Shown here: positions 5,894 through 23,670 of the stretch, piece by piece
How the letters are laid out: each line of letters opens with the position of its first letter
Position numbering within the stretch: position 1 is the stretch's first letter
Assembly: GCA_964392315.1 (NCBI GenBank)
Contig: CAYMOT010000002.1
Location: 228,365-270,893 of the forward strand
Length of the DNA stretch: 42,529 bases
Source: an uncultured Candidatus Saccharibacteria bacterium
Lineage (GTDB): Bacteria > Patescibacteriota > 4484-211 > JAGQKX01
Direction of reading: 5' to 3'
The notes under the pieces: generated by a model
Databases searched by the model: none
What the model was told of the DNA's origin: nothing
The model's input: only the letters and a program-made list of their open reading frames with translations
Made by a program: the position numbers and the translations under genes

Positions 5894-7131
5894 CCATTGG
5901 TTTTGAATAGTATGACGCCTACATATAACACGCACATGAGTATTTGCCCCCAAAGCCACGCCCAACCTACTCCAATGAGTGATCCGGAAAGCATGCTGTA
6001 ACTCAAAATAAGTAATACGAGTGAACCAACAGCATTCACCCCAATCAATGCAGTTAGATAATGTTTGATTTTAAAAACAATATTAAACATGGTATTAAAT
6101 GCAAGAGGAATTGAAGAAACTGCTAGTATAGTCAACAATCCTGCACCTTGCTCAGAGTATTCAGAACCATAAAAAAGGAGCACATAGTTTCCAAACAAAG
6201 CAACAAAAACAACCGTAGGAATGAGTGTTACGAGAAACGACAGGATCACTTTTTTGGTTTCTTGATGTAATGACTGCTCATTAACAGAACCTTCTGCGTA
6301 CAATGAACTACTAATAGACTGTGGAATTATGAATATGAAAGCCGCCAATGACATGCTCATAAAATAATACGCAGTTTGTTCTGGTCCGCGAATAGTGGTT
6401 ATGAGCAACGGCATGATAAGACGCGGTAATTGTTCTAATATTTCGGTAACAAAACTGGCAAACGAAAACCGCGCCATGTTTTTGATAATTTCTAAATTTA
6501 CTTTTAATCGAAGTCGCAAATGGAATCTTCTACTTAGGATAAATAGGCTAAAAATTACTGATAGTACAAGCGCAATCATCCACGCAGACAACAGTCCGAT
6601 AGCACCCATGCCAAATACCATCATGATGAGTAGTATTCGTGCAATATGGAATATGACATTCTTTATAAGCACAAACTGCGAGGACCGATAGGCTCGAAAA
6701 ACACTAAACATCACCTCACTCAAACTCCATATGATCACAAATGCACAGAACAGCAGAATATACAGACTGCCATGCTCAAAAAGAACTTCAGTCGCAGCGC
6801 TTTTTGAAACCAGTATAAAAATTACTGCTGCACATACAGATACTACAGTGACTATGGTCAAAACCGTACTGACTTTTTCACTTTTTCTGGTAGACGTCGG
6901 CAAGTATCGGACCAAGCTGATATTTAGTCCAAAGATAGACAAAAGCGATAACAACTCAACCGAAGAGGTTACGGTAGTCACCAGACCAATAGCATCAGCG
7001 ACAAACAATCGGGTACTAATCGTCCAAAACAAGAAGCCCAAAATAGCAGATAAAATACTGTTTATGAGCAAATAGGCAGAGTTGCGATAGAGAGAGTCTG
7101 TAATTATGGCTCGATATATTTTCTTAATCAT
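5866..7131 (-). CDS. Oligosaccharide flippase (Wzx/MATE-like)
   Basis: About 12 TM segments; N-terminal LYRNSAYLLINSILSAILGFLFW is typical of polysaccharide exporters; lies in the glycan locus. Confidence 0.85.
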   Translation of the reverse strand: MIKKIYRAIITDSLYRNSAYLLINSILSAILGFLFWTISTRLFVADAIGLVTTVTSSVELLSLLSIFGLNISLVRYLPTSTRKSEKVSTVLTIVTVVSVCAAVIFILVSKSAATEVLFEHGSLYILLFCAFVIIWSLSEVMFSVFRAYRSSQFVLIKNVIFHIARILLIMMVFGMGAIGLLSAWMIALVLSVIFSLFILSRRFHLRLRLKVNLEIIKNMARFSFASFVTEILEQLPRLIMPLLITTIRGPEQTAYYFMSMSLAAFIFIIPQSISSSLYAEGSVNEQSLHQETKKVILSFLVTLIPTVVFVALFGNYVLLFYGSEYSEQGAGLLTILAVSSIPLAFNTMFNIVFKIKHYLTALIGVNAVGSLVLLILSYSMLSGSLIGVGWAWLWGQILMCVLYVGVILFKTNGHRTTEVKS

Positions 7132-8747: not shown

Positions 8748-8821
8748 TGCGGGGTCGTCTAACGGCAGGACTCTGGGTTTTGGTCCCAGCTATCGGGGTT
8801 CGAATCCCTGCCCCGCAGCCA
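8748..8821 (+). tRNA. tRNA-Gln (anticodon TTG)
   Basis: Acceptor stem TGCGGGG/CCCCGCA, anticodon stem CTGGG/CCCAG with TTG at 8780-8782, T-loop GTTCGAAT, encoded CCA end at 8819-8821; TATAAT upstream at 8724-8729. Confidence 0.97.
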
Positions 8822-9041: not shown

Positions 9042-9428
9042 ATGAAAGGTAAACACTCTCATGGACAAAAAGCTCTTACCGAAGCAGAAAAAGAAATAAT
9101 GGATGTTATCTGGGGAAAAAATGAAACTACGGTTCGTGGTGTCCTAGAAACTCTCCAAAAGCACAAAGAAGTCGCATATACCACAGTAATGACACTGATG
9201 GATATTTTACACAAAAAAGGACATCTTACACGCAAATTGGTCGGAAAGGCATACGTCTATTCCCCTGCGCAAGATAAAAAAACGTTTCAATCAATGTATG
9301 TTGGGAGGGTAGTTGAGGAGCTATTTGATCAGTATGGAGAGATTGCTGTTAATCAGTTTGCAGCTGAAATTGATTCATTACCCGATAAACTGAAACAACG
9401 TCTAAAAGAAAAATTATCCAATGAGTAA
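9042..9428 (+). CDS. BlaI/MecI/CopY family transcriptional repressor
   Basis: LTEAEKEIMDVIW, VAYTTVMTLMDILHKKGHL, GKAYVYSP. Confidence 0.92.
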   Translation: MKGKHSHGQKALTEAEKEIMDVIWGKNETTVRGVLETLQKHKEVAYTTVMTLMDILHKKGHLTRKLVGKAYVYSPAQDKKTFQSMYVGRVVEELFDQYGEIAVNQFAAEIDSLPDKLKQRLKEKLSNE

Positions 9429-10368
9429 ATCCAGCGTTTATTTTACCAGTATTGTAATGGCAGCACTTGTTACGCTCTTTTCCTTGTGGCATTTTATCCG
9501 TTTGGGATCCCTAAAAGTTGTACAATTTCTCATTCACCCCGCTATAGAATTAGTTAACTACTGTCAGACCGTCCTTGCTCAAATAATCGATAATCCCACT
9601 GTAACTGCATCATTCATCACAATCATATTTATCACCTCTGGTGCTTTACTGGTCGTTGTTTTAATCACTATTTCGATACGAAAATATGGAAAACTTACTG
9701 GGCTCCTTAGACCATCGGTCCCATCTGAAAAACTCACGAAGGTTATGAAAGATTTGGACATCACTACAGAAGTGGTTTGTCTCTCTACACAAAATGTCTA
9801 TTCGTTTTGCGCCGGACTTATACAGCCCAAAATTTATGTGTCCAAAGGGTTGGTAGACACATTTTCTGAAAAAGAGCTCAAGGCAGTATTAGCCCACGAA
9901 AGTCATCACGCTAAATCGTATGATCCACTCAAATCACTCATAATTTCTTGTGTAACAAAAGTGCCACTTCTGTCAAAATTCACCAAACAAATCTCACAAA
10001 GATTTATCCTCCTTCAGGAACTTGATGCTGATGCCTACGCAATTCAACATTCCGATAAAACAACTTTTTTACATGCACTGACAAAGGCATCATTTGTGCA
10101 TGAAATTCCAGCTCCTGCGTTTTCAAACGCCCAGACCTTACGTTTTGAGTATCATTTATCACGCAAACCGAGCTACAAAATGGGCAAATCTCTGTTTATA
10201 TCTACAGCAATGATAACCCTCTTACTCGCAACCAACCTACTTATATTGAATTTCACTAGCGAAAACACGGGAGATTCAGTAATTCATGTGCTTTCTCATA
10301 CAGAAACCGCTTGCCAGAGTGAGACTCCAGCCTCGTTCATTTCTACAACAGCCTCAACACACACTTGA
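9421..10368 (+). CDS. M56 family membrane metallopeptidase (BlaR1 N-terminal-like, no penicillin-binding domain)
   Basis: FCAGLIQPKIYVS, HExxH (LAHESHH), QELDADAYA; translationally coupled to blaI. Confidence 0.88.
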   Translation: MSKSSVYFTSIVMAALVTLFSLWHFIRLGSLKVVQFLIHPAIELVNYCQTVLAQIIDNPTVTASFITIIFITSGALLVVVLITISIRKYGKLTGLLRPSVPSEKLTKVMKDLDITTEVVCLSTQNVYSFCAGLIQPKIYVSKGLVDTFSEKELKAVLAHESHHAKSYDPLKSLIISCVTKVPLLSKFTKQISQRFILLQELDADAYAIQHSDKTTFLHALTKASFVHEIPAPAFSNAQTLRFEYHLSRKPSYKMGKSLFISTAMITLLLATNLLILNFTSENTGDSVIHVLSHTETACQSETPASFISTTASTHT

Positions 10369-12628: not shown

Positions 12629-13396
12629 CTAACTATCTAAAACTACATTCGCTATGATGGTATTTTCCAACCTTGGATAATTTGGATGATCTGTTTCAAC
12701 GTAGATCGTTCGGGTAAGATCACCTACATCTGTCGCATCGCCATGTACCGCTGGATCAAAAGTGACTCTCATATCAATTGATTCGCCTGATTGTACGGTA
12801 TCTTTTTCAGGAAATGCTTGTGTACAACCACATGATGTGGTGACTCGAGTCAGAGCAATCTCCTGATCTGTGTTGTTGAAAATAACAAAATTCGTTTCGG
12901 GAACATCACCATAAATGACTATCCCAAGATCTTGGTTTGCTGGAGTAATGGTGACTCCTTGTTGGTTCTTTTGGACATATGCATCATATGCTATTTTCCC
13001 GCCAACAAGGTTTTTGACATTTGTGTACCCAAGGTCTATGAGTGTTTGAGAGGCAATTTGGCTCATATTACCGCTTCTGCAGTAGACCAATATTTCTGCA
13101 TCCTTATCGACAGGCAGATCACCAATATTGGCTTCTATCTCAGTATATGGGATAAATGTATCAGTCCCTTGAATATGCTCTTGTTCAGGAATATGCGTAT
13201 CAACGACAAATGGGTCACTAGTCTCGATGATTGAAATGAACTCCTCAGCGGTTACATCTTGATAGCTTTCAATTGTTGTATTCTGCGTATCCTCAGTTTC
13301 TATGTTGTCCTTTTCACTAGGCGATGAATAACTGACCACTAAAGCTCCAATTACAAGAACAAGTACTGCTGGTATTACAAAGGTTATTAATTTCAT
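12629..13396 (-). CDS. Exported rhodanese-domain protein fused to a DUF1573 (Ig-like) domain
   Basis: N-terminal anchor; rhodanese active loop VYCRSGNMS; C-terminal VTTSCGCT..VTFDP..HG. Confidence 0.82.
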   Translation of the reverse strand: MKLITFVIPAVLVLVIGALVVSYSSPSEKDNIETEDTQNTTIESYQDVTAEEFISIIETSDPFVVDTHIPEQEHIQGTDTFIPYTEIEANIGDLPVDKDAEILVYCRSGNMSQIASQTLIDLGYTNVKNLVGGKIAYDAYVQKNQQGVTITPANQDLGIVIYGDVPETNFVIFNNTDQEIALTRVTTSCGCTQAFPEKDTVQSGESIDMRVTFDPAVHGDATDVGDLTRTIYVETDHPNYPRLENTIIANVVLDS

Positions 13397-13878
13397 GATA
13401 TTTGTGTCACCACCCTCCGGATAGGGACGTTTTGTGTACTCTTATATCGTAGATATTGTCTTAAGAGATATCCAATACCAACGATGTTTGAAAAAACACC
13501 AAGTAACAAAAAGACCGATTGGTATTCTGCTAAAAATACGCTCAACCCGGTTAATCCGACAATCGGTAGTATATCAACCACATGATGTGCACAGCAAGCT
13601 ATCATTGCACCCGAAGAAGTAGCTCCAGTGGCTGCTACACTGTTTTGATTTGTATGTATGCTAACCGCTTTAACGTAGGTATATAGGGCTACTTGTACTC
13701 CAAACCCGATTATCAATAAAGACATCAGTAGCCACAATGACTGGTATTGATCAATTGCTACATCCCATGACCCGGTGGCAACACGCATGATTAAAAAATA
13801 GCCACTGAGCAAACTGATTCCTGCAAGCATTCCATTGATAAGAGATTGTTGCAATGTTTTTTTTATGTTTATTCCCAT
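13393..13878 (-). CDS. Uncharacterised 4-TM membrane protein with a CCAHH motif
   Basis: Hydrophobic helices; intramembrane MIACCAHH; SD-like GAGGAG upstream; overlaps both neighbours. Confidence 0.78.
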   Translation of the reverse strand: MGINIKKTLQQSLINGMLAGISLLSGYFLIMRVATGSWDVAIDQYQSLWLLMSLLIIGFGVQVALYTYVKAVSIHTNQNSVAATGATSSGAMIACCAHHVVDILPIVGLTGLSVFLAEYQSVFLLLGVFSNIVGIGYLLRQYLRYKSTQNVPIRRVVTQIS

Positions 13879-14327
13879 GTAATACTCCTCTCCGTGATAC
13901 CCGCAATATTTTTGCCAACTATCTCAAATGGTGTTTCTGTTTGAGGGAAAGCCAATTTAGCAGATCGGTGATGACCCACACCGAGTATTTCGACTGAGAT
14001 TGGCGTTATCTCTTGTCCATCTTTCCGAATGATAATGTCATTAGAAAAATCAACCATATCTAAGTCAATTGAATGAGTGTTCAAATACACTTCGAAAGCG
14101 GTGATCGATTCAGTGGAGCTATCAGGTTTGTATTCTGCGGTCATAGTCACCCGGCCCTCCCCGTCATCACTACGTGAAAGTTCTCCATGTGGTTCATTCC
14201 ATTGACTTGGATTATTATTCGCACTCGCAACTATTTCTTGATTGTCCAACGACTCACGAGATTCATAAAGAAACCAAGGCACAGCTATCACGATAATGGC
14301 GATTGATACGATTCGTAGGTATTTCAT
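13869..14327 (-). CDS. Uncharacterised exported protein with NTH and GHH motifs
   Basis: N-terminal TM/signal segment; YLNTHSIDL and GVGHHRSA; operon context. Confidence 0.75.
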   Translation of the reverse strand: MKYLRIVSIAIIVIAVPWFLYESRESLDNQEIVASANNNPSQWNEPHGELSRSDDGEGRVTMTAEYKPDSSTESITAFEVYLNTHSIDLDMVDFSNDIIIRKDGQEITPISVEILGVGHHRSAKLAFPQTETPFEIVGKNIAGITERSITWE

Positions 14328-14331
14328 AGTT

Positions 14332-15351
14332 CTAGCAACTACTACTGCCTTGTGTAGACTGAGGTAGAGATTGTATTTTGCTTCTTGTGGTCGAATATCC
14401 CTGTGCGCTTGAATATTCTTTACTCAGAGCCAACTTCGTATCAACTGTATCCCACTTCTGTCCTTGTTCTTCAAAATACCTTGCAAGGTCTATATACGTC
14501 TGTGGAAACCAGAAACTGTTTACTTTGAGGGCAATATCATACATATCCTGTTCACTTACTCCTTCAGCTGCCATTAGTTGTAAAAGGCCAAGCATCGCCA
14601 TCCCATGGTTACAATCTGGGAAATGGGTGCTATTCCCACAGCATGGACGATAGATATTACCGGATACTTCATCAACTAGTTTTTGTTGTTCTGCAGATAA
14701 TGTAACGAACTGATGTTTACTATAATGATCCATTGGTTCACCCTCCGCAAGAGACCATCCTCCCGTTGAAGCAAACCTACCTGCACCGCCATACTGCTCG
14801 TCTGACATTTCACCATTATCAAGAATGTCATTCTGATTGGCCAATCCGAATGCCCAAAGCATATCTAGCATGAACCGTGAGTTATTGTTAGTCATGATAA
14901 TAGGTTTATTCCAAGTACCGGCTAGAATAGCCTCCTGGTCTTCGGTGAGACTGTTTTGAAACAAATCCTTGAACTTTGCTTCATCAATAACTCCTTGTTC
15001 GGTCATTTTTTCACCAAGATTCCTCCACGAGATTGGTAATGTAACACCATCCTGTGGCAATACTGCTGCAGCAAGTGTGTCTGAATTTATTGAGGTATTA
15101 GATACAGTACTGTTGGATTGGACTTCTCTGTTTGATGAAGTATCTTGCTTGCGATAGATCTCAATCGTATAGAATTGGTTGAAGATAAGTGCTCCGATTA
15201 GTATTAGTGAGATTGGAAGCCATGGGTTTTTAGCTAGTGACTTTTTATCATGGGTTTCTTTGACAAAAGGAGTTATATCAGCAATGTCTTCTGAATCTTC
15301 CTGCACTTCATGTTCTTCTATTGACTCATGGTTTTCACAGCAGTGGCTCAT
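14332..15351 (-). CDS. Uncharacterised membrane-anchored Cys/His-rich protein
   Basis: 339 aa; cytoplasmic MSHCCENH, one TM helix, extracytoplasmic RPCCGNSTHFPDCNHG, terminal Cys. Confidence 0.8.
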   Translation of the reverse strand: MSHCCENHESIEEHEVQEDSEDIADITPFVKETHDKKSLAKNPWLPISLILIGALIFNQFYTIEIYRKQDTSSNREVQSNSTVSNTSINSDTLAAAVLPQDGVTLPISWRNLGEKMTEQGVIDEAKFKDLFQNSLTEDQEAILAGTWNKPIIMTNNNSRFMLDMLWAFGLANQNDILDNGEMSDEQYGGAGRFASTGGWSLAEGEPMDHYSKHQFVTLSAEQQKLVDEVSGNIYRPCCGNSTHFPDCNHGMAMLGLLQLMAAEGVSEQDMYDIALKVNSFWFPQTYIDLARYFEEQGQKWDTVDTKLALSKEYSSAQGYSTTRSKIQSLPQSTQGSSSC

Positions 15352-15357
15352 GTCAAT

Positions 15358-15391
15358 ACATTAGCAAAGTAATGATGAAGAGAAGATGAAG
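15358..15391 (-). promoter_or_regulatory. OmpR-type direct-repeat box CTTCAT-N5-CTTCAT (15391-15375) with extended -10 TGcTAATGT
   Basis: The 17-mer is identical to 23654-23670 and has the same spacing to the -10 and to the ATG. Confidence 0.72.
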
Positions 15392-15398
15392 AATGAGA

Positions 15399-16763
15399 CT
15401 AAATAGAAAAATCTAAAGAAATTGTAGTACCCTTACCTTCAATAGAAGTTATACTCAATGTTCCATTCATGTTTTCAGTAACGGTTTTGGTAATTGCCAA
15501 TCCAAGCCCAGTCCCTGAGCCAATGCTGTTGCTAGCCCGATAAAATCTATTTGATACATTTTTAATCTCTGATTCAGGTATCCCGATCCCAGTGTCTTTA
15601 ACTACAACTACAATGTGGGTTTTGTTTTTGGTCAAAGATACAGAAACAGTTCCCTTGGATGGTGTATAGGTAATCGCGTTTTCTAATAGATTTAACAAAG
15701 CTCTCGTAAATAGTGATTTATCACCCTGTACTACTATTCCAGGTTGTACGTTCTTCTTAACGATTATTCGCTTGTCCTCTGCTAGAGTTTCCGAGATTTC
15801 GATCACTTCATGTACTAGAGATGACAGATCTACTTCAGTCATTGACTGTTTTATCACGCCTTGCAATCGTGAAAGGTACAAGAGATCTTGGACAGTCTTA
15901 TGCAGACCATTGAGCGTATGTAAAAGTTTTTCCTTAGTTGTCACTGATGTCTCGATGCTTTCAATTTGGGTATGCAACACAGTAATTGGTGTTTTGAGTG
16001 TGTGTGCTGCGTCAGCAAAGAATTGTCGTTGTACTTTAAACGATTCTTCTAGGCGATCTAACATTGAATTTAAAACATCTGCTAATTCACCAAGCTCACC
16101 TTGTGATTCAGTATCGGGAATTCGGTCTTGCAAATTTGCTGAGTGAGTAATCGTATTTGCGGTAGAAGTGATTGCACGAATGGGTGAGAGTGCTCTCTTT
16201 GCAATTACATACCCAACGAAACACACAATAACAATCGAAATCAACAACAAGCTAGATAAAGCTATCAACGACTGGTTAAATGTATTCTCGAGTAGGCTAG
16301 TCTGAAATCCGACACCAATGACTCCTTGTGATGAAGCTATCGTTGTTGGTATCAATACAAACCTAATTGAATCAATAGAGAAGTAGTGAGGTATTGTTAC
16401 ATCGTCGTTTCGCACTATGACAAGATGTTGTTGCAGTTGATGTTGAGCAGGGAGAGCTATATCTTCGCTTGTACTTTGCAAGAGTATCTCTCCGTCTGGT
16501 GCCATTACCATTACAACCATCCCTTGAGATGCAACGAGACTTTGGATAATTTCCTCACCCTCTATACCAGATTGTTGCCAAACAGTCTCAACCTGTTCCA
16601 CTACCGTTTGAAGATGGTGTTCTATCTGCTGATTGAGGATATTCCAAAATATTAAACTAGCTACGAACAAAAACGTTGCAAACAGGAATGTAAAACTAGT
16701 AACATACCAGACAGTCAATCGCCCTCTAATTGTCCTAACCCATTGGCTGAATTGCTTAATCAT
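15399..16763 (-). CDS. HAMP-domain sensor histidine kinase
   Basis: Two TM helices, HAMP (ELGELADVLNSMLDRLE), H-box DAAHTLKTP, N-box NLLENAITYT, G1 DTGIGI, G2 GTGLGLAI. Confidence 0.93.
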   Translation of the reverse strand: MIKQFSQWVRTIRGRLTVWYVTSFTFLFATFLFVASLIFWNILNQQIEHHLQTVVEQVETVWQQSGIEGEEIIQSLVASQGMVVMVMAPDGEILLQSTSEDIALPAQHQLQQHLVIVRNDDVTIPHYFSIDSIRFVLIPTTIASSQGVIGVGFQTSLLENTFNQSLIALSSLLLISIVIVCFVGYVIAKRALSPIRAITSTANTITHSANLQDRIPDTESQGELGELADVLNSMLDRLEESFKVQRQFFADAAHTLKTPITVLHTQIESIETSVTTKEKLLHTLNGLHKTVQDLLYLSRLQGVIKQSMTEVDLSSLVHEVIEISETLAEDKRIIVKKNVQPGIVVQGDKSLFTRALLNLLENAITYTPSKGTVSVSLTKNKTHIVVVVKDTGIGIPESEIKNVSNRFYRASNSIGSGTGLGLAITKTVTENMNGTLSITSIEGKGTTISLDFSI

Positions 16764-17439
16764 CTACACTCTCCTCCCGTAATATGTAGCCCTTTCCTCT
16801 AATTGTATGAAGCAATTTGGTATCGAATCCATTATCAATCTTGTTGCGTAAGTTCTTTATGTATACATCAACGACATTTGAGAGTGTTTCAAACTCACTT
16901 CCCCAAACATGATCGAGTATCATCGTACGGGTAACCACATTCCCTTTGTTTCGTGCAAGAAATTCCAGTACTGAAAACTCTTTTGCTGGCAAATCTATGT
17001 CTTTACCACCCCTTTTGATGGTATGTGCCTGCGGATCAATTTCTAAATCAGCAATTAAAATTGTAGGTGATGGATCTTTGGTACTCCGACGAATTAACGC
17101 ATGGATTCGGGCTGTTAATTCATCCATTGAAAACGGTTTTGGTAAATAGTCATCTGCACCCAACTGTAGCCCTGTCACACGGTGTTCTATGTCAGAATAC
17201 GCCGTGAGCATAATGACCGGAGTAGCAATACTTTCTTTACGAAGAGACTTAATAATCTCAAAGCCATCCTTGTAGGGTAAGTTAATATCCAAGACAACAG
17301 CATCAAATGCTTCCTCTGTTGCACGGAATTCGCCATCCTCGCCGTCGAAAGCTATTTCGGCTACAAAGCCTTCTTTTCTTAAATGGTCTTGAATATTATG
17401 GGCAATATCCTTGTCATCTTCGATAATAAGTATTCGCAT
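16756..17439 (-). CDS. OmpR/PhoB family response regulator (CusR-like)
   Basis: ILIIEDD, VLDINLP, LTA, DDYLPKPF; winged-helix region VVDVYIKNLRNKID..TIRGKGY. Confidence 0.95.
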   Translation of the reverse strand: MRILIIEDDKDIAHNIQDHLRKEGFVAEIAFDGEDGEFRATEEAFDAVVLDINLPYKDGFEIIKSLRKESIATPVIMLTAYSDIEHRVTGLQLGADDYLPKPFSMDELTARIHALIRRSTKDPSPTILIADLEIDPQAHTIKRGGKDIDLPAKEFSVLEFLARNKGNVVTRTMILDHVWGSEFETLSNVVDVYIKNLRNKIDNGFDTKLLHTIRGKGYILREESVDD

Positions 17440-17487
17440 TGTAATTATGTGTTATTGCTATCATCTATATTTACACACCTATCATAC

Positions 17488-18018
17488 CTATACTTCAAGC
17501 TGCTTTTTAAAATATTCCAGCTCTTTAAACGTATGCGGAACGTACCCTTTTTTATTTGCATAAAGTTCCGAAATTTTGAAAAACAGTTTTCCTATAATAG
17601 TTTCCGGTATCCGTAGGTACACCGTATGTGAAACAAGAGATCCTTCGGATGCAGGTTCAACCATAACCACGCCACTTTCAGGCACTCTCAATCGTAATAA
17701 ACCGAACATATGATATTCAGCCAAACCAGTCCACACGCACACCTTCGGTCTTTCTGCATAGAGAATGTGTCCATGTAAATCTGCATACACACCCGAAACT
17801 TTTTCTTTTTGATAAAACGCTACTCCTGTTTCGGGGCGATTTATATTATTGTAAAAAGTTAAGCCCAAATGCTCGTCTGGGTTAGAAGCTGTCCATGTCT
17901 CAGGATCATATGCATATTCCCATATTTTCTCCGGTTCAGCTTTGACGACTACTTCATATCGTTTGGTCAACCACCCACTGTTTTGATCTAGATTGTCAGG
18001 ATGTATTTCTGGTCTCAT
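17488..18018 (-). CDS. SRPBCC/START-like hypothetical protein
   Basis: EVVVKAEPEKIWEYAYDPETW resembles an SRPBCC N-terminus; sits in a tight operon. Confidence 0.55.
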   Translation of the reverse strand: MRPEIHPDNLDQNSGWLTKRYEVVVKAEPEKIWEYAYDPETWTASNPDEHLGLTFYNNINRPETGVAFYQKEKVSGVYADLHGHILYAERPKVCVWTGLAEYHMFGLLRLRVPESGVVMVEPASEGSLVSHTVYLRIPETIIGKLFFKISELYANKKGYVPHTFKELEYFKKQLEV

Positions 18019-18021
18019 GTT

Positions 18022-19593
18022 TTAACTTACTTCAAAAAGTGTCATCATTCCGGCTTCCATATGTTCAGGAATATGGCAATGCATCATCCAGTCTCCAGGA
18101 TTAGTGATATCTAACAGAATATCAATAGTCTCTCCTTTACCAATAAGGACAGTATCTTTCCAGACAAAATTATCATTTGTCTTGCCGTCTTTAGCTAGGA
18201 CCAAAAAGCGCTGGCCATGAAAATGTATTGGATGTTGCATGGGATGCATGGTATCGGGGTCGTTGAAAATGCGTATCTTAACCTTGTCGCCACTTTTAAA
18301 CTGCCAATTAATACCCATATTCTCTTTGTTAGTAACAGAATCAATCAGTTTCCATGTAAGAGTTCCATTTGTTGATCCTTGATTCATCATACTCATAGTA
18401 TCTTCCCATTCGATCAGTTCGTCATCTCTGCCCATTTGCATAGAGTTATTATTCATCATCTGACCATTACTCATCATGTGCATACCATGTCCGTTATTTT
18501 CCATAGTATTTGAACTACTAGCGTTACCCATAATCATTGATAGAACAAGATTTTTATCAGGAGCCTTATCAACAAAAGCTCGATACCGGGACAATTCTTT
18601 AATAGTGTCTTCATTATTCCGGGTAACAGGAAGGTAAGAGGTCGTAAAAGGCCCAGGTTCTACCTCAATGGTACCCATGGTGTATGTTTTGTCTGGAGTT
18701 AGGTTATTAATTGTATAATTCCCAGAATCAGTAAAATACACTTCAACGATATATCTTTCCGAAGGTCCAATGATTACTGAATCCACCCATTCTTCTCGTT
18801 CATATTTACCACTATCGCTTCCAATTAATTTCATGCGGGTATTGGGAATCGAAAAATTAAAAACTCTCGTATTAGCTGCGTTTGTAATATACAAGCGCAA
18901 TCGTTCCCCTTGTTTAGCCTGTAATACAAAATCATCTTTTCCATTTATGAGCATCGTATTCCCGAATCTGCCCATTAGTGCGTGAGTGACCGTTGTTTTA
19001 TCAAATGGTGCAATCTGTCCGTTTTCAATTAAAATATCATCCAAAAAAAGAGTTTCTTCACGATCAACTTCTGCCCAGTAGGCAGTATCGTTTGGAACAA
19101 CAATAAAGTTGCCATATAAACCCATTTCTTGGGTGTAATCCTCTCGAACATGTGGATGGTACCAATACACCCCAGGATCAGGAAACGTTATCTTATAGGT
19201 AAATGAGCCGTGTGGTTTTATAGTCTCTTGCGTAACCTCAGCTACGCCATCAAATGCATTCTCAAGACGGACACCGTGTGAATGTAGTGTTGTCTCAACA
19301 TCAATATTGTTATTAAGGGTCAAGTAAATAGTTGCCCCCTGTACTATTCGTATTGTAGGGCCAGGTATCGAACCGTTATAGGCAAACATCGTTACATCAT
19401 TCCCCTCAATTTCAGAAATAACGGGAGATGCAGTGATTTCATACGACGATCCGTCCTGCAAAATCACATTTTCAGTAGATTTTATAGTTGGTATTTGATT
19501 TCCAAAGGGACGCCAATTATCCAGGGAAAAAATAACTAAAAAAATCAAGATAAGTCCAAAAAGTGATAGAAGTATTTTATTTTTTGCTAACAT
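18022..19593 (-). CDS. Exported multicopper oxidase (CueO/CopA-like)
   Basis: All four Cu motifs present: HSHG, WYHPH, HPIHFHG, HCHIPEHMEAGM; Met/His-rich insert. The start was moved to MLAKNK (19593) because the upstream extension overlaps the DUF2933 gene. Confidence 0.95.
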   Translation of the reverse strand: MLAKNKILLSLFGLILIFLVIFSLDNWRPFGNQIPTIKSTENVILQDGSSYEITASPVISEIEGNDVTMFAYNGSIPGPTIRIVQGATIYLTLNNNIDVETTLHSHGVRLENAFDGVAEVTQETIKPHGSFTYKITFPDPGVYWYHPHVREDYTQEMGLYGNFIVVPNDTAYWAEVDREETLFLDDILIENGQIAPFDKTTVTHALMGRFGNTMLINGKDDFVLQAKQGERLRLYITNAANTRVFNFSIPNTRMKLIGSDSGKYEREEWVDSVIIGPSERYIVEVYFTDSGNYTINNLTPDKTYTMGTIEVEPGPFTTSYLPVTRNNEDTIKELSRYRAFVDKAPDKNLVLSMIMGNASSSNTMENNGHGMHMMSNGQMMNNNSMQMGRDDELIEWEDTMSMMNQGSTNGTLTWKLIDSVTNKENMGINWQFKSGDKVKIRIFNDPDTMHPMQHPIHFHGQRFLVLAKDGKTNDNFVWKDTVLIGKGETIDILLDITNPGDWMMHCHIPEHMEAGMMTLFEVS

Positions 19594-19771
19594 GTTGGTT
19601 TTCTTGCTGTGTATGCCCATGTGATCGATGCATAAAAATATGCATGATAGGACAAAAAAGCAAAAACATTCCCCATACAATATTCTCTCGAACCAAAGGG
19701 AACAGTATGTACACACCTAATAAACTAAAAATAAAAATCACACATGCAATTATCAAAAAATTATGCTTCAT
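19577..19771 (-). CDS. DUF2933-like small membrane protein
   Basis: LLFCPIMHIFMHRSHGH signature, commonly found next to Cu-ATPases. Confidence 0.78.
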   Translation of the reverse strand: MKHNFLIIACVIFIFSLLGVYILFPLVRENIVWGMFLLFCPIMHIFMHRSHGHTQQENQHVSKK

Positions 19772-19775
19772 ATAG

Positions 19776-21917
19776 TTATACGTGTAATTTCGTCTTACGT
19801 AGAGTTAAGGCGTTAATGACGACAATTACAGAGGAAAGACTCATTAATATAGCTCCAACTGCTGGGGTTAGCATAAATCCAAGAGGTATAAATAGTCCTG
19901 CTGCTGCTGGAATAGCGAGAACATTATACCCTGTCGCCCAGATAAGATTTTCTACCATTTTTCTGTATACCTTTCGGGACAAAACAATCAATCGTACAAG
20001 ATGCTGAGGATTGCTCTGCGTCAAAATAATATCTCCTGCCTCTACTGCTACATCTGTCCCAGCGCCAATTGCTACTCCAGCATTCGCTTGGGTTAATGCA
20101 GGAGCATCATTAACGCCGTCGCCGGCCATAACCACTACATTCCCCTGATCCTGAAGGTCTTTGATATGCCGATATTTATCCTCAGGTAACACTTCTGCAA
20201 ATACGGTATCTATTCCTAATCGTTTCGCTATAGACTCAGCTGATGATGTGGTATCACCGGTAAGCATAGCGACTTTTACTCCTAGTGTATGTAGTTCATC
20301 GACCGCTTGTTTGGATTCCTCTTTGACATCATCGCTAAGCCCAAGCATACCGATAATGCGTTCGTTGTCAGAAACAAATACTGGTGTCTTTCCTTCCTTA
20401 TTAAATTCATCTAAAATTTCTTGCGCTGATGCAGACATTAAGTTTTTTTGTTCCATAAGTCTTTGATTTCCGACAAAATATCTTTTATCACCAACTGATG
20501 CTTCCATTCCCATACCAGCTATATTCTTAATATTGGTTGCTTCACCATATAAGGCATTTTCTCGTTTAAGATAATTGATAATTGCTAATCCAATAACATG
20601 AGAGGAATGATTTTCTATACTCCCGACAATATTCAGTAATGATTCTTCATCACCATGGAGTATTTTTACATCGGTTACTCCAAATTCACCTTTGGTCAAA
20701 GTTCCTGTTTTATCAAACACTACATAGTCAGCACTCTTTATGATTTCAATCTTAGCCATATCTTTTATAAAAACCCCATTATTTACAGCTAGCTTCGTTG
20801 CTATTGTTGAAACAGTTGGTATCGCAAGACCGAGTGCATGTGGACAAGCAATCACAAGCACTGTAATGGCTAAAGTAGCAGCAAAGACAAATGGTTCGCC
20901 AATAAATAGCGACCAGATAATCAATGCACCAAACGACACAATTAATGCAGAAAATGTTAGCCATCTTGATGCCCGATCCGCCAATTTTTGTACTGACGGC
21001 TTGGTTTGCTTGGCGGAAGTAATCAAATCCTGGATTTGTCCAATGGTTGAATTTGCTCCTACTCGCGTTAATTTAATTTCTAACGAACCATCAATGTTTA
21101 TTGCACCTGCGACAACATCTGCGCCGACTGTTTTTTCAATAGGTTTGGATTCACCAGTAATATGGGATTCATTGAAATTACCACTTCCCAATACAATTTC
21201 ACCGTCTGCAGGAACCTTTTCTCCTGGCTTCACAATAACAGTATCACCTTCAACTAGCGACGTTATTTCAACTTCCTTGACCCCATCGTTAGTCTTTAGG
21301 TGTGCTTCTTTTGGCAACAGCTTTGCCACTTCTTGTAGTGCATCTCCTGCAGCTGTTGACGACTTTGCCTCAAGGAAATGTCCAAACAAAAGTATCCATA
21401 TAAGTGTTGCTATTTCTAAATAAAATTCGACCTCGATTCCTGGAATAAAGGTAGAAGCTGCCGAAAATAAGTATCCTGCACCTACTCCTAGTGATACCAA
21501 CGTCATCATGCCATACTGTCTAGCCATAATTTCGTGGCGTGCATGTTGGAAAAATACTAGACCGAAATAAAATATTATTGACGCTATACCAAACTCAACA
21601 AAAGGCCGTAATGTAAAATCAGGAGCCCCTAGAAACATGACCGCTGGTTCAGAAAAAAATGCGAGAGGAACCAATAATACTGTGACAATAAAAAATCGTT
21701 TTAGAAAATCTGCAGCCGCTTCTGGTGTCGCCATCATACTGGCATGATCATGGTGTGTTGACCCACTATCGATATCGCTCTTTTTGACAAGTTCCATTCC
21801 CCCACATTTGAGGCACTTACCTGGTGTATCCTGCTGTATCTCAGGATGCATGGGGCATGTATAGTACTCTCTTTGCTTTCCGTTATGAGTATGTTCATGA
21901 TTATTTGTATGCATCAT
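19776..21917 (-). CDS. copB: Copper-translocating P1B-type ATPase (CPH, P1B-3/CopB-like)
   Basis: His-rich N-terminus and YTCPMHP..KCLKCG metal domain; TGES, CPHALGLA, DKTGT, GDGVND, TM YN and MSLSS. Confidence 0.93.
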   Translation of the reverse strand: MMHTNNHEHTHNGKQREYYTCPMHPEIQQDTPGKCLKCGGMELVKKSDIDSGSTHHDHASMMATPEAAADFLKRFFIVTVLLVPLAFFSEPAVMFLGAPDFTLRPFVEFGIASIIFYFGLVFFQHARHEIMARQYGMMTLVSLGVGAGYLFSAASTFIPGIEVEFYLEIATLIWILLFGHFLEAKSSTAAGDALQEVAKLLPKEAHLKTNDGVKEVEITSLVEGDTVIVKPGEKVPADGEIVLGSGNFNESHITGESKPIEKTVGADVVAGAINIDGSLEIKLTRVGANSTIGQIQDLITSAKQTKPSVQKLADRASRWLTFSALIVSFGALIIWSLFIGEPFVFAATLAITVLVIACPHALGLAIPTVSTIATKLAVNNGVFIKDMAKIEIIKSADYVVFDKTGTLTKGEFGVTDVKILHGDEESLLNIVGSIENHSSHVIGLAIINYLKRENALYGEATNIKNIAGMGMEASVGDKRYFVGNQRLMEQKNLMSASAQEILDEFNKEGKTPVFVSDNERIIGMLGLSDDVKEESKQAVDELHTLGVKVAMLTGDTTSSAESIAKRLGIDTVFAEVLPEDKYRHIKDLQDQGNVVVMAGDGVNDAPALTQANAGVAIGAGTDVAVEAGDIILTQSNPQHLVRLIVLSRKVYRKMVENLIWATGYNVLAIPAAAGLFIPLGFMLTPAVGAILMSLSSVIVVINALTLRKTKLHV

Positions 21918-22201
21918 TAACTCCTTTCTCCCGCAAGTTCATAAATTTTTAGTAGCTCATTGAAAACCTTCTCGTCAATCTGTCCAGACTTGCTGTTTTC
22001 GAGATGCTCCTTAATATGGGTTTTCATATGGTTTTGCAGAATCAACTTATTAAGTGAGCGTATTGATTTCTGTATAGCTAATGACTGTGTAAAAATGTCA
22101 ACGCAATATTCCTCATTTTCAATCATCTTTTCTAACCCCTTTATCTGGCCCTGGATGATTCGTGTGCGATGTATGGCACGCTTTTTAATATCTTTAATCA
22201 T
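21917..22201 (-). CDS. csoR: CsoR/RcnR family metal-sensing repressor
   Basis: RIIQGQIKGLEKMI..YCVDIFTQ..LQNHMKTH; coupled to the ATPase (TAATG). The start was moved to 22201 because the upstream extension is the operator. Confidence 0.88.
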   Translation of the reverse strand: MIKDIKKRAIHRTRIIQGQIKGLEKMIENEEYCVDIFTQSLAIQKSIRSLNKLILQNHMKTHIKEHLENSKSGQIDEKVFNELLKIYELAGERS

Positions 22202-22207
22202 GTACCC

Positions 22208-22237
22208 ATGATAATACCCCCCAGGGGTATATGTCAA
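22208..22237 (-). promoter_or_regulatory. Sigma70 promoter (TTGACA-18-TATCAT) enclosing a CsoR operator ATACCCC-N3-GGGGTAT (22214-22230)
   Basis: Perfect -35 at 22237-22232; -10 at 22213-22208; G/C-tract palindrome of the type known for CsoR operators. Confidence 0.82.
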
Positions 22238-22242
22238 GAGAG

Positions 22243-23100
22243 TTATTTTTTACTATTCCTCCAGGAAGTGTACAGAAACAGAAATAAACTTATTATCAAA
22301 AGTAAGAACACCCCTTGTGTTATCCAGCTATCACCAACAAATTCGTTAATTCTAATAGTTAGTTGGCCAACCCATTCACCAAACTTTTCTGCTTCCTCAG
22401 TCATTTCAAGTTTGCCTGTCAGAGTAAGTATAATTGTGAGGACTCCCATTGGTACAAATACTAAAAAGGCTAGCATGTTTGACATTATGATGGGATATGC
22501 TTTACCTAAGACATGCACTTCTGTGATTTTTTTCTTAAAAATCTGAGCATTAAGTACTTTTTTTGCATCTACAAAGTACGCAAGTAAATAAAGCGGAGTA
22601 ACGATTCCAAGAACATATACAAACGCAACCAAGGCTCCAAACCATACACTTGGCGATAGGAAGCTTAACGTCAGCACTCCTAGAAGAACAGGTGCGCAAC
22701 ACGAACTTGTGATACCGGAAAATACACCCAATGTAAAAATAGACAGCACATCTGGATTATTCGGGTCTGAGTCTGGTTGTTTGAAGTTTGGCATGGGAAG
22801 CTTAATCCCTAATAGTGCAAAAATTCCAATAAATATCATCAGCAACCCACCAAGGATAAATGTCTGATTGTGAAAATCCATGAACAAGTTTGATAAAAAC
22901 TTGAAGCCAAGAACAATCGGAAACATGATGACAAAAATCCCAGCAGAAAACACCATTGTCATGAAGAATACCTGTTTACGTTCCTTGAATACAGAACCAA
23001 GATAGGCTGGTAGCAGATAGCTTATACAGCACGGTGCAAAAAGTGCAATCATTCCGGCTATGAACGATGAAATTAGTGAAGCCCCAATAAAGAAATCCAT
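22243..23100 (-). CDS. CcdA-like membrane protein with Cys-Cys pairs
   Basis: IALFAPCCISYLLPAY and SSCCAPVL motifs; multiple TM segments. Confidence 0.8.
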   Translation of the reverse strand: MDFFIGASLISSFIAGMIALFAPCCISYLLPAYLGSVFKERKQVFFMTMVFSAGIFVIMFPIVLGFKFLSNLFMDFHNQTFILGGLLMIFIGIFALLGIKLPMPNFKQPDSDPNNPDVLSIFTLGVFSGITSSCCAPVLLGVLTLSFLSPSVWFGALVAFVYVLGIVTPLYLLAYFVDAKKVLNAQIFKKKITEVHVLGKAYPIIMSNMLAFLVFVPMGVLTIILTLTGKLEMTEEAEKFGEWVGQLTIRINEFVGDSWITQGVFLLLIISLFLFLYTSWRNSKK

Positions 23101-23102
23101 AA

Positions 23103-23630
23103 TTATCGAACTACGTTTGCATCAAACGTTAGTTCCATCTGGGGCAGCTGTGTAGAATTTGTTTTTATGAAAATGCTTCGACGTGCAGGACCAGTACCTG
23201 ATGGCCCATGTGCGGCAGGATCATAAATCGCCTCGATTTCAAAACTCTCACCTGGTTCAATTACTCTATTAAAATATGTTGACGAACCATGACCGCGCAT
23301 ACCAGCGATCTGAGAACTTGTGCCGTCAGCATAAACTGCTTGTGCCGAAGTACACATACATGATGTATACACTTCCCCGATTGTTACCGGCTCATTGCTG
23401 TCGTTGGTTAACTGATATCGATGGGAAACATCTCCGTCATACATATTAATGACTCCAAAATCATAATCACTCGACTCAACTGATAATGTTCCATTGCTCG
23501 GTTCCGTTGAAGCGAGGACATTTTCTTGATCCTGTTGTTTTTGGTCAAATGAGAGAATTATCCCGAAGACTAATACAAAAACTATAGCAATCCCACCAAC
23601 CGCAAATAATGTATTTTTATTAAACTTCAT
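23103..23630 (-). CDS. Membrane-anchored DUF1573 (Ig-like) protein
   Basis: YDFGVI, VYTSCMCT, YDPAAHGP; paralogous to the C-terminal domain of 12629-13396. Confidence 0.8.
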   Translation of the reverse strand: MKFNKNTLFAVGGIAIVFVLVFGIILSFDQKQQDQENVLASTEPSNGTLSVESSDYDFGVINMYDGDVSHRYQLTNDSNEPVTIGEVYTSCMCTSAQAVYADGTSSQIAGMRGHGSSTYFNRVIEPGESFEIEAIYDPAAHGPSGTGPARRSIFIKTNSTQLPQMELTFDANVVR

Positions 23631-23636
23631 GCTGGT

Positions 23637-23670
23637 ATATTACTAGCCTAAACATGAAGAGAAGATGAAG
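23637..23670 (-). promoter_or_regulatory. Second OmpR-type box CTTCAT-N5-CTTCAT (23670-23654) with -10 TAATAT
   Basis: Identical 17-mer and geometry to 15358-15391. Confidence 0.72.

What the first reader, a model, noticed from the sequence alone, without database searches (positions are those of the whole stretch)
15358..23670. Identical 17-bp direct-repeat box defines a two-operon regulon for the resident two-component system
Seen: CTTCATCTTCTCTTCAT (minus strand) occurs at 15391-15375 and 23670-23654, 8.3 kb apart. In both cases it is followed by 11 nt, a TAATRT -10, and an ATG 7 nt after the -10, so the box ends 24 nt from the start codon. Known: OmpR/PhoB regulators bind 11-bp-period direct repeats in place of the -35. 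Inference: the response regulator at 16756-17439 activates both DUF1573-containing operons, which functionally links them.
Basis: partly seen in the sequence, partly recalled or inferred. Interest (0 to 1): 0.65.

Follow-up and report, generated by a model that had tools for sequence, protein, structure and literature searches.

The report
Copper regulator box on leaderless promoters
Two identical 17-base boxes mark the only two promoters in this ultra-small (CPR/Patescibacteria) genome that are built to be switched on by the neighbouring copper-type two-component regulator, and the same box, spacing and regulator recur in many related genomes, giving a well-supported but still unproven regulon prediction in a group where gene regulation is almost unstudied.

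Summary
CTTCATCTTCTCTTCAT lies on the minus strand at 15375-15391 and 23654-23670. These are the only two copies in the 995-kb genome. Both show box, 11 nt, TAATRT, 6 nt, ATG.

The reading is supported by comparative evidence:
- The box YTTCAT-N5-CTTCAT recurs with the same spacing in at least 16 Patescibacteria loci: 29 sites, against a mean of 1.4 for permuted half-sites.
- It is present in 13 of 15 loci that hold an orthologue of the resident OmpR-type regulator, and in 3 of 65 that do not.
- A weight matrix built only from other genomes ranks the two window sites first, at 30.7 and 23.8 bits. The next best scores 16.1 and lacks promoter geometry.
- Regulators with a different recognition helix go with a different proximal half-site.
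- The half-site core, TGAAGA at an 11-bp period, matches the proven CopR site of Corynebacterium glutamicum.

Refinements:
- The promoters are leaderless, which is a genome-wide habit here.
- The second "operon" is interrupted by a separate CsoR-operated promoter, so box 2 securely controls only DUF1573 and the CcdA-like gene.

Binding, activation and copper response remain untested. This is a new member of a known kind.

The parts
15375..15391 (-). Box 1: CTTCAT-CTTCT-CTTCAT, two direct half-sites at an 11-bp period. It lies at -40 to -24 if the A of ATG 15351 is +1, and starts 7 nt after the kinase stop codon.
   Evidence: 23.8 bits with a matrix built from other genomes
15358..15363 (-). 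-10 hexamer TAATGT of the box-1 promoter, preceded by TGc (extended -10). Six nt separate it from ATG 15351.
   Evidence: the genome-wide leaderless pattern
12629..15351 (-). Box-1 operon: Cys/His-rich membrane protein of the P0001 family (14332-15351), 152-aa protein (13869-14327), 161-aa protein (13393-13878) and rhodanese-DUF1573 (12629-13396).
   Evidence: Orthologous operons lie behind the same box in other genomes.
23654..23670 (-). Box 2: an identical 17-mer, 19 nt after the stop codon of the serine recombinase gene.
   Evidence: 30.7 bits
23637..23642 (-). -10 hexamer TAATAT of the box-2 promoter. Six nt separate it from ATG 23630.
22243..23630 (-). Securely box-2-driven genes: DUF1573 protein (23103-23630) and a CcdA/DsbD_TM-like membrane protein (22243-23100).
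   Evidence: The same gene pair lies behind the box in G004.
22199..22237 (-). Internal leaderless promoter with a CsoR operator: TTGACA (22237-22232), ATACCCCTGGGGGGTAT (22230-22214), TATCAT (22213-22208), 6 nt, then ATG 22201, the likely true csoR start.
   Evidence: It matches the type-2 CsoR consensus ATATACCCCTNAGGGGTATAT (PMC3902906).
17488..22201 (-). Genes downstream of the CsoR-operated promoter: csoR (21917-22201), copper P-type ATPase (19776-21917), small DUF2933 protein (19577-19771), multicopper oxidase (18022 to about 19593 or 19620) and a 176-aa protein (17488-18018).
16756..17439 (-). OmpR/PhoB-family response regulator with a receiver domain (acceptor Asp51) and a winged helix. 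It is the proposed box-binding activator, and its best family match is the heavy-metal regulator subfamily.
   Evidence: (TIGR01387, 244 bits, below the 279 cut-off)
15399..16763 (-). Sensor histidine kinase: two membrane helices, an outside loop of about 120 aa, then HAMP, HisKA and HATPase domains. Its best family match is the heavy-metal sensor kinase subfamily.
   Evidence: (TIGR01386, 213.7 bits, below the 292.55 cut-off)

Best explanation
The 17-mer is the binding site of the resident CopR/CusR-like OmpR-family response regulator (16756-17439). It consists of two CTTCAT half-sites one helical turn apart, at -40 to -24 of two promoters. Both promoters have a -10 hexamer and no usable -35. 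The hexamer at 17-bp spacing is TCTTCT, which matches TTGACA at 2 of 6 positions.

Proposed mechanism (inferred, not shown): the membrane kinase (15399-16763) senses envelope copper stress and phosphorylates Asp51 of the regulator. A head-to-tail regulator dimer then occupies the box and recruits RNA polymerase through sigma region 4, as PhoB does at pho boxes. Transcription starts on the A of the ATG, giving leaderless mRNAs.

Targets:
- Box 1 drives the four-gene operon of Cys/His-rich envelope proteins (12629-15351).
- Box 2 drives the DUF1573 and CcdA-like genes (22243-23630).
- Transcription from box 2 may read on into csoR-copA-mco-regulator-kinase. That stretch also has its own CsoR-repressed promoter.
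- The island therefore combines an envelope copper sensor (the two-component system) with a cytoplasmic one (CsoR).

Shown here: the sequence, its uniqueness in the genome, its geometry, its conservation, its co-occurrence with the regulator, and the covariation with the recognition helix. Inferred: physical binding, activation rather than repression, copper as the signal, and the transcription start.
For: Uniqueness and geometry
- The box is unique in the genome and identically placed at both sites.

Conservation in other genomes
- In other families of the same order, the same or a near-identical box lies at box, 11 nt, TAnnnT, about 6 nt, ATG. It precedes orthologues of both operons' first genes. 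G004 has 4 boxes in one island, G008 has 3, and G006 has the variant CTTAAT half-sites at two promoters.
- Among 80 Patescibacteria loci encoding the P0001 family, box plus geometry gives 28 sites in 16 loci. Sixty permuted half-sites give a mean of 1.4 sites and a maximum of 4.
- Information content is confined to the half-sites, two T after the box, and the T, A and T of the -10 hexamer.
- In a scan of 401 genomes of the phylum, genomes with several sites appear only for the real pattern. The reversed control gives single hits only.

Link to the regulator
- The box is present in 13 of 15 loci with a regulator orthologue of at least 45% identity, and in 3 of 65 without one.
- The two exceptions, plus G041, carry regulators with a different recognition helix and wing: SNLVDVLIGTLR / TVYGVGF instead of SNVVDVYIKNLR / TIRGKGY. 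They have a variant box, CTTCATAAGTTYTTTAA, at the same spacing.
- In distant families (G056, G163, G135, G211) the box again sits next to a regulator-kinase pair, typically directly after the kinase stop.
- A matrix built without the window scores the two window sites at 30.7 and 23.8 bits. The next best hit is 16.1 bits and has no promoter geometry.
- Only two full-length OmpR-type regulators exist in the genome.

Fit to known systems
- The regulator and kinase match the heavy-metal two-component subfamilies best and sit among copA, a multicopper oxidase and csoR.
- The experimentally proven C. glutamicum CopR site, TGAAGATTTnnTGAAGATTT, shares the TGAAGA core and the 11-bp period with the reverse complement of this box (PMC3140484).
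- Pho boxes are 11-nt direct-repeat units, and PhoB contacts sigma-70 (PMC4415409).

Leaderless layout
- TAnnnT lies exactly 6 nt before the start codon in 113 of 882 ORFs, against a background of about 25. Of these, 109 start with ATG.
Against: - There is no experimental binding, expression or transcription-start data.
- The regulator and kinase score below NCBIfam's cut-offs for the heavy-metal subfamilies.
- Co-occurrence of box and regulator is partly confounded by relatedness: the loci with the regulator are also the closest relatives of the island. The helix/half-site covariation rests on essentially two clades.
- About half of the box promoters, including box 1, have an extended -10 (TGn). 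That could allow some activator-independent transcription.
- The E. coli CusR box, as I recall it, is an inverted repeat and not this motif.
- How the regulator and kinase are themselves transcribed in this genome is unclear. No clean promoter lies before 17439.
Confidence: 0.82

Rival explanations
1. The box is bound by the resident regulator, but as a repressor or roadblock site. Alternatively, the regulator only modulates promoters that run on their extended -10.
For: Box 1 and about half of the homologous promoters carry TGn before the -10 hexamer. Extended -10 promoters need no -35. Box 1 lies immediately after the kinase gene, so a bound protein could also block read-through.
Against: The site lies upstream of the -10 hexamer, at -40 to -24. 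It does not lie over the -10 or the start, where repressors usually act. The CsoR operator in the same island does lie in the spacer. Box 2 has no TGn and no -35, so it should be weak without help. The geometry equals that of PhoB-activated promoters (established knowledge).
Confidence: 0.08
2. The box is recognised by a different protein. Candidates are the second OmpR-type regulator (C1:432976-433647), CsoR, the BlaI/CopY-like repressor, or a special sigma factor.
For: No binding data exist. The genome has a second full-length OmpR-type regulator with 41% identity.
Against: In every other genome examined, the box travels with the island's own regulator-kinase pair and changes with that regulator's recognition helix. 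CsoR has its own palindromic operator, which is present once. Boxes occur in islands without csoR, such as G004. Direct repeats at an 11-bp period are not what CsoR or BlaI dimers or tetramers bind. The -10 hexamer is of the housekeeping type used genome-wide.
Confidence: 0.05
3. The two copies are structural repeats of a mobile element, such as attachment or recombination sites flanking the 8.3-kb copper segment or the remains of a duplication. On this view they are not regulatory.
For: Box 2 lies 19 nt from the end of a large serine recombinase gene.
Against: G004 has four boxes and G008 three within one island, all in one orientation relative to the downstream gene. The distance to a -10 hexamer and a start codon is fixed in 16 loci while the flanks differ. 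The box occurs in loci without a nearby recombinase. Serine recombinases do not generate long direct repeats (established knowledge).
Confidence: 0.03
4. The match is a chance coincidence of a CT-rich 17-mer.
For: None beyond the low sequence complexity of the box.
Against: With up to 2 mismatches allowed, 0.04 matches are expected and 0 of 100 shuffles give 2. The box is conserved across genomes and the permutation controls stay low.
Confidence: 0.01

Closest known systems
CopRS of Corynebacterium glutamicum, with the CopR site TGAAGATTTnnTGAAGATTT (PMC3140484)
   Same: Both are OmpR-family regulator and kinase pairs inside a copper island that holds a P-type ATPase and a multicopper oxidase. 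Both have a direct repeat at an 11-bp period, and the half-site core TGAAGA is identical to the reverse complement of this box. The regulon is confined to the island itself, with a single site in the genome there and two sites here.
   Different: There the half-site is 9 bp (TGAAGATTT), while here the conserved part is 6 bp, (C/T)TTCAT. There one site lies between divergent operons and far from one mapped start. Here each site sits at a fixed class-II position on a leaderless promoter. The target genes differ: here they are Cys/His-rich envelope proteins, DUF1573 and a CcdA-like protein. The host is a Patescibacteria genome, and binding is untested.
PhoB and the pho box of Escherichia coli (PMC4415409)
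   Same: Both use two direct-repeat units of 11 nt (7 conserved and 4 variable there, 6 and 5 here). The unit is similar: CTGTCAT against CTTCAT. The box is read in the direction of transcription, replaces the -35 about 10-11 bp upstream of the -10 hexamer, and is expected to recruit sigma region 4.
   Different: The signal differs: phosphate there, presumably copper here. The regulon and half-site sequence differ. The pstS-type promoters have leaders, while these are leaderless.
CusRS of E. coli and the heavy-metal two-component subfamilies TIGR01387 / TIGR01386
   Same: These are the best-scoring families for both proteins, and the genomic association with copper efflux and oxidation genes is the same.
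   Different: The scores are below the curated cut-offs. The CusR box, as I recall it from the literature (not checked here), is an inverted repeat unlike this direct repeat.
CsoR-operated promoters (type-2 operator ATATACCCCTNAGGGGTATAT, PMC3902906)
   Same: One is present in the same island, at 22199-22237, and in most Patescibacteria P0001-family loci that lack the two-component system. It is the alternative way this gene set is controlled.
   Different: It is a GC-tract palindrome in the promoter spacer and a repressor site. It is not the 17-mer.

Membership tests
OmpR/PhoB-type response-regulator box (class-II activator site) | Two or more direct-repeat half-sites spaced one helical turn (10-11 bp) apart | tested here: met
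   The box is CTTCAT-N5-CTTCAT with an 11-bp period. Across 27 foreign sites the half-sites are conserved and the middle 5 nt are variable.
OmpR/PhoB-type response-regulator box (class-II activator site) | The site overlaps or replaces the -35, about 10-11 bp upstream of a -10 hexamer, at a promoter with a poor -35 | tested here: met
   There are 11 nt between the box and TAATRT at both sites and in 16 loci. The hexamer at 17-bp spacing is TCTTCT, 2 of 6 against TTGACA.
OmpR/PhoB-type response-regulator box (class-II activator site) | A cognate regulator with a receiver domain and a winged-helix Trans_reg_C domain is encoded nearby | tested here: met
   PF00072 and PF00486 match at 16756-17439. 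Asp51, Thr79 and Lys101 equivalents are present. The closest solved structure is T. maritima DrrD, 1kgs, E 3e-71.
OmpR/PhoB-type response-regulator box (class-II activator site) | Site and regulator co-occur and co-vary across genomes | tested here: met
   The box is present in 13 of 15 loci with the regulator against 3 of 65 without. A variant recognition helix goes with a variant proximal half-site. The association recurs in distant genomes. Relatedness confounds part of this.
OmpR/PhoB-type response-regulator box (class-II activator site) | Physical binding of the phosphorylated regulator, and regulator-dependent transcription | not testable with these tools
   This needs EMSA or footprinting, reporter assays or in-vitro transcription.
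Heavy-metal (CopRS/CusRS) two-component system | Regulator and kinase score above the curated cut-offs of TIGR01387 and TIGR01386 | tested here: not met
   These are the best hits but fall below the cut-offs: 244.1 against 279.2 bits, and 213.7 against 292.55 bits.
Heavy-metal (CopRS/CusRS) two-component system | Genomic association with copper efflux or oxidation genes | tested here: met
   A copper P-type ATPase with a heavy-metal-binding domain, a multicopper oxidase, CsoR and DUF2933 lie in the same strand cluster. The association is the same in other genomes.
Heavy-metal (CopRS/CusRS) two-component system | The binding motif resembles that of a characterised member | tested here: inconclusive
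   It shares the TGAAGA core and the 11-bp period with C. glutamicum CopR. Only 6 of the 9 half-site positions can be compared, and other members use other motifs.
Heavy-metal (CopRS/CusRS) two-component system | Induction by copper or silver | not testable with these tools
   No expression data were available.
Leaderless promoter / leaderless mRNA | A -10 hexamer ends 6-7 nt before an ATG start, with no room for a ribosome-binding site | tested here: met
   Six nt separate TAATRT from ATG at both sites. Both N-termini look real: a signal-anchor MKFNKNTLFAVGG, and MSHCC, which is conserved as MSSCC in G004.
Leaderless promoter / leaderless mRNA | The same layout is enriched genome-wide, with ATG starts | tested here: met
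   113 of 882 ORFs have the hexamer at a gap of exactly 6, against a background of about 25. Of these, 109 of 113 start with ATG. TGn and a weak TTG at 17-18 bp lie upstream. Other Patescibacteria loci give 74 against about 22.
Leaderless promoter / leaderless mRNA | The mapped 5' end coincides with the start codon | not testable with these tools
   No transcriptome data could be reached.
Mobile-element terminal or attachment repeats | Exactly two direct copies bound the element, at positions unrelated to promoters | tested here: not met
   Related islands hold three or four copies, each at a fixed distance from a -10 hexamer and a start codon.

The most novel reading that the evidence does not exclude
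The box, regulator and kinase form a self-contained, island-borne copper-stress switch that moves between Patescibacteria. It would be the first transcription-factor regulon in this phylum to be defined from sequence. It turns on a widespread and wholly uncharacterised set of Cys/His-rich envelope proteins (P0001 family, DUF1573, rhodanese-DUF1573, CcdA-like, and the 152-aa and 161-aa proteins) through PhoB-like activation of leaderless promoters. If so, the motif gives a direct experimental handle on both the unknown proteins and on transcription in organisms that cannot yet be grown alone. That handle could be a heterologous reporter or DAP-seq.
Probability: 0.6. Interest if true: 0.6.

Novelty: new member of a known kind. 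Interest (0 to 1): 0.45.

Why it matters
Almost nothing is known about how the ultra-small Patescibacteria (CPR) regulate genes.

This finding gives a precise and testable cis-element: a 17 bp box with defined spacing, and exactly two targets in this genome. It names a candidate regulator and a probable signal, copper.

It also ties together a conserved set of uncharacterised cysteine- and histidine-rich envelope proteins, found in at least 573 Patescibacteria loci, as one stress response.

It shows that activator-dependent promoters in these organisms are built on leaderless transcripts. That layout appears to be a general feature of the genome.

The mechanism itself, an OmpR/PhoB-type activator replacing the -35, is textbook. 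The advance is a new and well-supported instance, not a new principle.

Tried and rejected
- **Chance or a common repeat.** Rejected. Shuffles, the whole-genome scan, permuted half-sites and the reversed-pattern control in 401 genomes all argue against it.
- **Attachment or terminal repeats of the recombinase island.** Rejected. Related islands hold 3-4 copies, each with fixed promoter geometry.
- **CsoR operator.** Rejected. The real CsoR operator is a separate palindrome at 22214-22230.
- **Further regulon members in this genome.** The weight-matrix scan found none. The next best hit is 16.1 bits without a -10 hexamer or an ATG.
- **Box in front of the regulator gene (autoregulation).** There is none in the window or in most related loci, which have plain leaderless promoters there. 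It is present in G056 and G163.
- **Suspected frameshift at the start of the multicopper oxidase gene.** Rejected. The out-of-frame ORF is a separate small DUF2933 gene.
- **Literature on leaderless genes in CPR or Patescibacteria.** Two searches found nothing that addresses it.

Full report
**Observation**

The 17-mer CTTCATCTTCTCTTCAT occurs twice on the minus strand, at 15375-15391 and 23654-23670. Even with two mismatches allowed there are no other copies in the window. Shuffles give 0.04 expected matches, and none of 100 shuffles reaches two.

Reading both regions gives the same layout at each site:
- the box;
- 11 nt that differ between the sites (cattactttgc and gtttaggctag);
- TAATGT or TAATAT;
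- 6 nt that also differ;
- ATG, at 15351 or 23630.

Outside these elements the two regions do not align. The window's genome is 995 kb in 9 contigs and is rated 100% complete. In it, the exact 17-mer and CTTCAT-N5-CTTCAT with promoter geometry occur only here. His own refutation criterion, a common unpositioned repeat, is not met.

**Context**

All genes from 23630 down to 12629 lie on the minus strand. In order of transcription they are:
- box 2;
- a DUF1573 protein;
- a CcdA/DsbD_TM-like membrane protein;
- CsoR;
- a copper P-type ATPase;
- a small DUF2933 protein;
- a multicopper oxidase;
- a 176-aa protein;
- an OmpR-type response regulator;
- a HAMP/HisKA histidine kinase;
- box 1;
- a 339-aa Cys/His-rich membrane protein (P0001);
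- proteins of 152 and 161 aa;
- a rhodanese-DUF1573 fusion.

Upstream of box 2 lies a large serine recombinase with a terminase and methylase module. A tRNA-Gln gene lies at 8748-8821. Earlier notes of this scan read the whole metal cluster as cargo of an integrative island. I did not test that.

The regulator and kinase match the heavy-metal two-component subfamilies best, but below the curated cut-offs: TIGR01387 at 244 bits against 279, and TIGR01386 at 214 against 293. The regulator's closest solved relative is Thermotoga DrrD.

The organism is a Patescibacteria (CPR) bacterium. All relatives have genomes of 0.5-2 Mb. The orthologous contig of a same-order genome is labelled candidate division WWE3.

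**Comparative test**

This is the decisive evidence.

*Same order.* Orthologues of P0001 in other families of the order (57-59% identity) are preceded by the same box in the same geometry.
- G004 has four boxes in one island. They lie before DUF1573-CcdA-copA, before a 216-aa gene, before the P0001 orthologue and before DUF1573/rhodanese-DUF1573. Three are followed by 11 nt, TAnnnT, 6 nt and ATG; at the fourth the ATG lies 2 nt further on.
- G008 has three boxes.
- G006 has two promoters with the variant half-sites CTTAAT/CTTAAC at the same spacing.

*Wider sample.* The P0001 family gives at least 573 loci in public Patescibacteria genomes, and I examined the best 80.
- Without presupposing the motif, CTTCAT is the commonest hexamer repeated at an 11-bp period in front of a -10 hexamer and a start codon.
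- Allowing one mismatch per half-site, and requiring 11 nt followed by TAnnnT, gives 28 sites in 16 loci. Sixty permuted half-sites give a mean of 1.4 and a maximum of 4.
- The consensus is (C/T)TTCAT-CTTC(G/T)-CTTCAT-nTT, about 28 bits. Information is confined to the half-sites, the two T after the box, and the T, A and T of the -10 hexamer.
- A matrix built only from foreign sites ranks the two window sites first in the whole genome, at 30.7 and 23.8 bits. The next hit scores 16.1 and, like all lower hits, has no -10 or ATG geometry.
- The regulon in this genome is therefore these two promoters.

**Link to the resident regulator**

- The box with geometry is present in 13 of the 15 loci that also encode a regulator orthologue of at least 45% identity. 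It is present in 3 of 65 loci without one, and two of those three sites are poor.
- The two loci with a regulator but no standard box (L047, L085), plus G041, carry a regulator subclade with a different recognition helix and wing. It reads SNLVDVLIGTLR / TVYGVGF instead of SNVVDVYIKNLR / TIRGKGY. These loci have a different box, CTTCATAAGTTYTTTAA, followed in the three copies I could read through by 11 nt, a -10 hexamer, 6 nt and ATG.
- In a scan of 401 genomes of the phylum, the pattern with geometry occurs in 12 genomes (20 sites). The reversed control gives 9 single hits. Genomes with two or more sites occur only for the real pattern.
- In four of the distant genomes fetched (G056, G163, G135, G211), the box again lies beside a regulator-kinase pair of 42-48% identity. 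It sits directly after the kinase stop in G056, G163 and G135, as box 1 does, and directly before the regulator gene in G056 and G163; in G211 it lies about 4 kb upstream of the regulator.
- The genome has only two full-length OmpR-type regulators.
- The other regulators of the island have their own, different operators.
- Caveats: part of the co-occurrence reflects relatedness of the islands, and the covariation rests on about two clades.

**Mechanism**

- *Position.* If the A of the ATG is +1, the box spans -40 to -24. The hexamer at the normal 17-bp spacing is TCTTCT, so there is no -35.
- *Analogy.* This is the architecture of PhoB-dependent promoters. Those have 11-nt direct-repeat units with the conserved unit CTGTCAT, and the activator contacts sigma-70 (PMC4415409).
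- *Closest proven site.* The reverse complement of the box reads TGAAGA-N5-TGAAG(A). This shares its core and its 11-bp period with the experimentally proven site of C. glutamicum CopR, TGAAGATTTnnTGAAGATTT. That regulator likewise controls only its own copper island (PMC3140484).
- *Inferred sequence of events.* Copper stress at the envelope activates the kinase. The regulator is phosphorylated on Asp51. A head-to-tail dimer binds the box and recruits RNA polymerase.
- *Status.* Binding, activation and the signal are inferred, not shown.

**Leaderless layout**

Six nt between the -10 hexamer and the ATG leave no room for a leader. This is not peculiar to these promoters.
- In this genome TAnnnT lies exactly 6 nt before the start of 113 of 882 long ORFs, against a background of about 25 at other offsets.
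- Of these, 109 of 113 use ATG.
- TGn precedes the hexamer in nearly half of them, with a weak TTG 17-18 bp upstream.
- Shine-Dalgarno-like words are scarce.
- The same peak, 74 against about 22, is seen in 64 other Patescibacteria loci.
- Of 29 box promoters, 11 have the ATG at exactly 6 nt and 5 more at 8 or 9 nt. At least one (G008, 10336-10352) has a short leader with GGAGG.
- I found no paper that addresses leaderless genes in this phylum.

**Refinement of the 'two operons'**

Immediately after the CcdA-like gene lies a complete second promoter: TTGACA, 18 nt, TATCAT, 6 nt, then ATG at 22201. Its spacer is ATACCCCTGGGGGGTAT.
- This matches the type-2 CsoR operator consensus ATATACCCCTNAGGGGTATAT (PMC3902906).
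- It is the only GC-tract operator of this kind in the genome.
- The same promoter-operator design precedes csoR or copA genes in many other Patescibacteria loci.
- CsoR translated from ATG 22201 still covers the whole Pfam domain.

It follows that box 2 securely drives only DUF1573 and the CcdA-like gene. The stretch csoR-copA-DUF2933-oxidase-176-aa protein has its own copper-derepressed promoter. The regulator and kinase may be part of that unit, since no clean promoter precedes the regulator gene. Read-through from box 2 is possible, because no terminator was found, but it is not shown.

In L031, L033, L035, L038 and L043, one box drives a single operon holding the P0001 family, DUF1573, rhodanese-DUF1573 and the CcdA-like gene. 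The 161-aa and 152-aa genes form a second box-driven unit there.

**Rivals**

- *Repression instead of activation.* This cannot be excluded without experiments. The position upstream of the -10 hexamer and the missing -35 argue against it.
- *Another binding protein.* This is unlikely given the co-occurrence and covariation with the island's own regulator.
- *Attachment-site or duplication repeats.* These are excluded by the copy number and fixed promoter geometry in related islands.
- *Chance.* This is excluded.

**Verdict**

This is a new member of a known kind: an OmpR/PhoB-type, CopR-like activator box. It is notable for its host group, its leaderless context and the uncharacterised envelope proteins it controls.

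Noticed in passing
whole genome G000 (window = C2:228365-270893); also loci L045-L108: Leaderless promoters look like a genome-wide habit. TAnnnT lies exactly 6 nt before the start codon in 113 of 882 long ORFs, against a background of about 25. Of these, 109 of 113 start with ATG, TGn precedes the hexamer in nearly half, and Shine-Dalgarno-like words are scarce. The same peak (74 against about 22) appears in 64 other Patescibacteria loci. Two literature searches found no paper addressing this for the phylum.
   Followed up: partly
window 22199-22237 (-): This is a complete leaderless promoter with a textbook CsoR operator in its spacer: TTGACA, ATACCCCTGGGGGGTAT, TATCAT, 6 nt, ATG. The csoR start is probably ATG 22201, not the TTG at 22237. 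The same design recurs before csoR or copA in many Patescibacteria loci.
   Followed up: yes
window 19577-19771 (-) and 18022-19716 (-): A 64-aa two-helix membrane protein with a His-rich tail (DUF2933, 31 bits) lies between copA and the multicopper oxidase. The oxidase ORF listed from GTG 19716 overlaps it, and probably starts at ATG 19593 (MLAKNKILLSLFG, a signal anchor) or at 19620.
   Followed up: yes
L026 8860-8876 and about 10106; L047 about 7545 and 7925; L085 about 7995: A second clade of the regulator, with a different recognition helix and wing, goes with a different box, CTTCATAAGTTYTTTAA. In the three copies read through it keeps the same spacing to a -10 hexamer and the ATG; the L085 copy and the second L026 copy were not read to the ATG. 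In these genomes the kinase stop codon (TAA) lies inside the box.
   Followed up: partly
L025 (G006:C39) 6300-6316 and 9225-9241: In this same-order genome, both boxes carry A instead of C at the fourth position of each half-site (CTTAAT or CTTAAC), at two different promoters. The regulator's recognition helix is nearly unchanged, so the cause of the shift is unexplained.
   Followed up: no
window 14332-15351 (-), alignment A2: The P0001 family has no Pfam or NCBIfam match, yet at least 573 loci in public Patescibacteria genomes encode it. It has an invariant RPCC-N-T-FPDCNHGMAMLGLL motif, a C-terminal Cys, and in close orthologues an N-terminal MS-CC motif.
   Followed up: partly
L032, L039, L040, L041, L053, L059, L060, L081: Several contigs that carry this typically Patescibacteria island are labelled 'uncultured Gammaproteobacteria' or 'Pseudomonadales' in their public records. 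Either the labels of these assembled genomes are wrong, or the island has moved far. I did not examine this.
   Followed up: no
G000 C1:432976-433647: This is the only other full-length OmpR-type response regulator of the genome (41% identity to the resident one), with a kinase-like gene next to it at about C1:431891-432538. Its targets are unknown, and no CTTCAT box lies nearby.
   Followed up: no
L024 (G008:C19) 10336-10352 (-): This is a box promoter with the usual spacing, but with a short leader carrying GGAGG before the ATG of a 63-aa ORF. It shows that the box is not restricted to leaderless transcripts.
   Followed up: no
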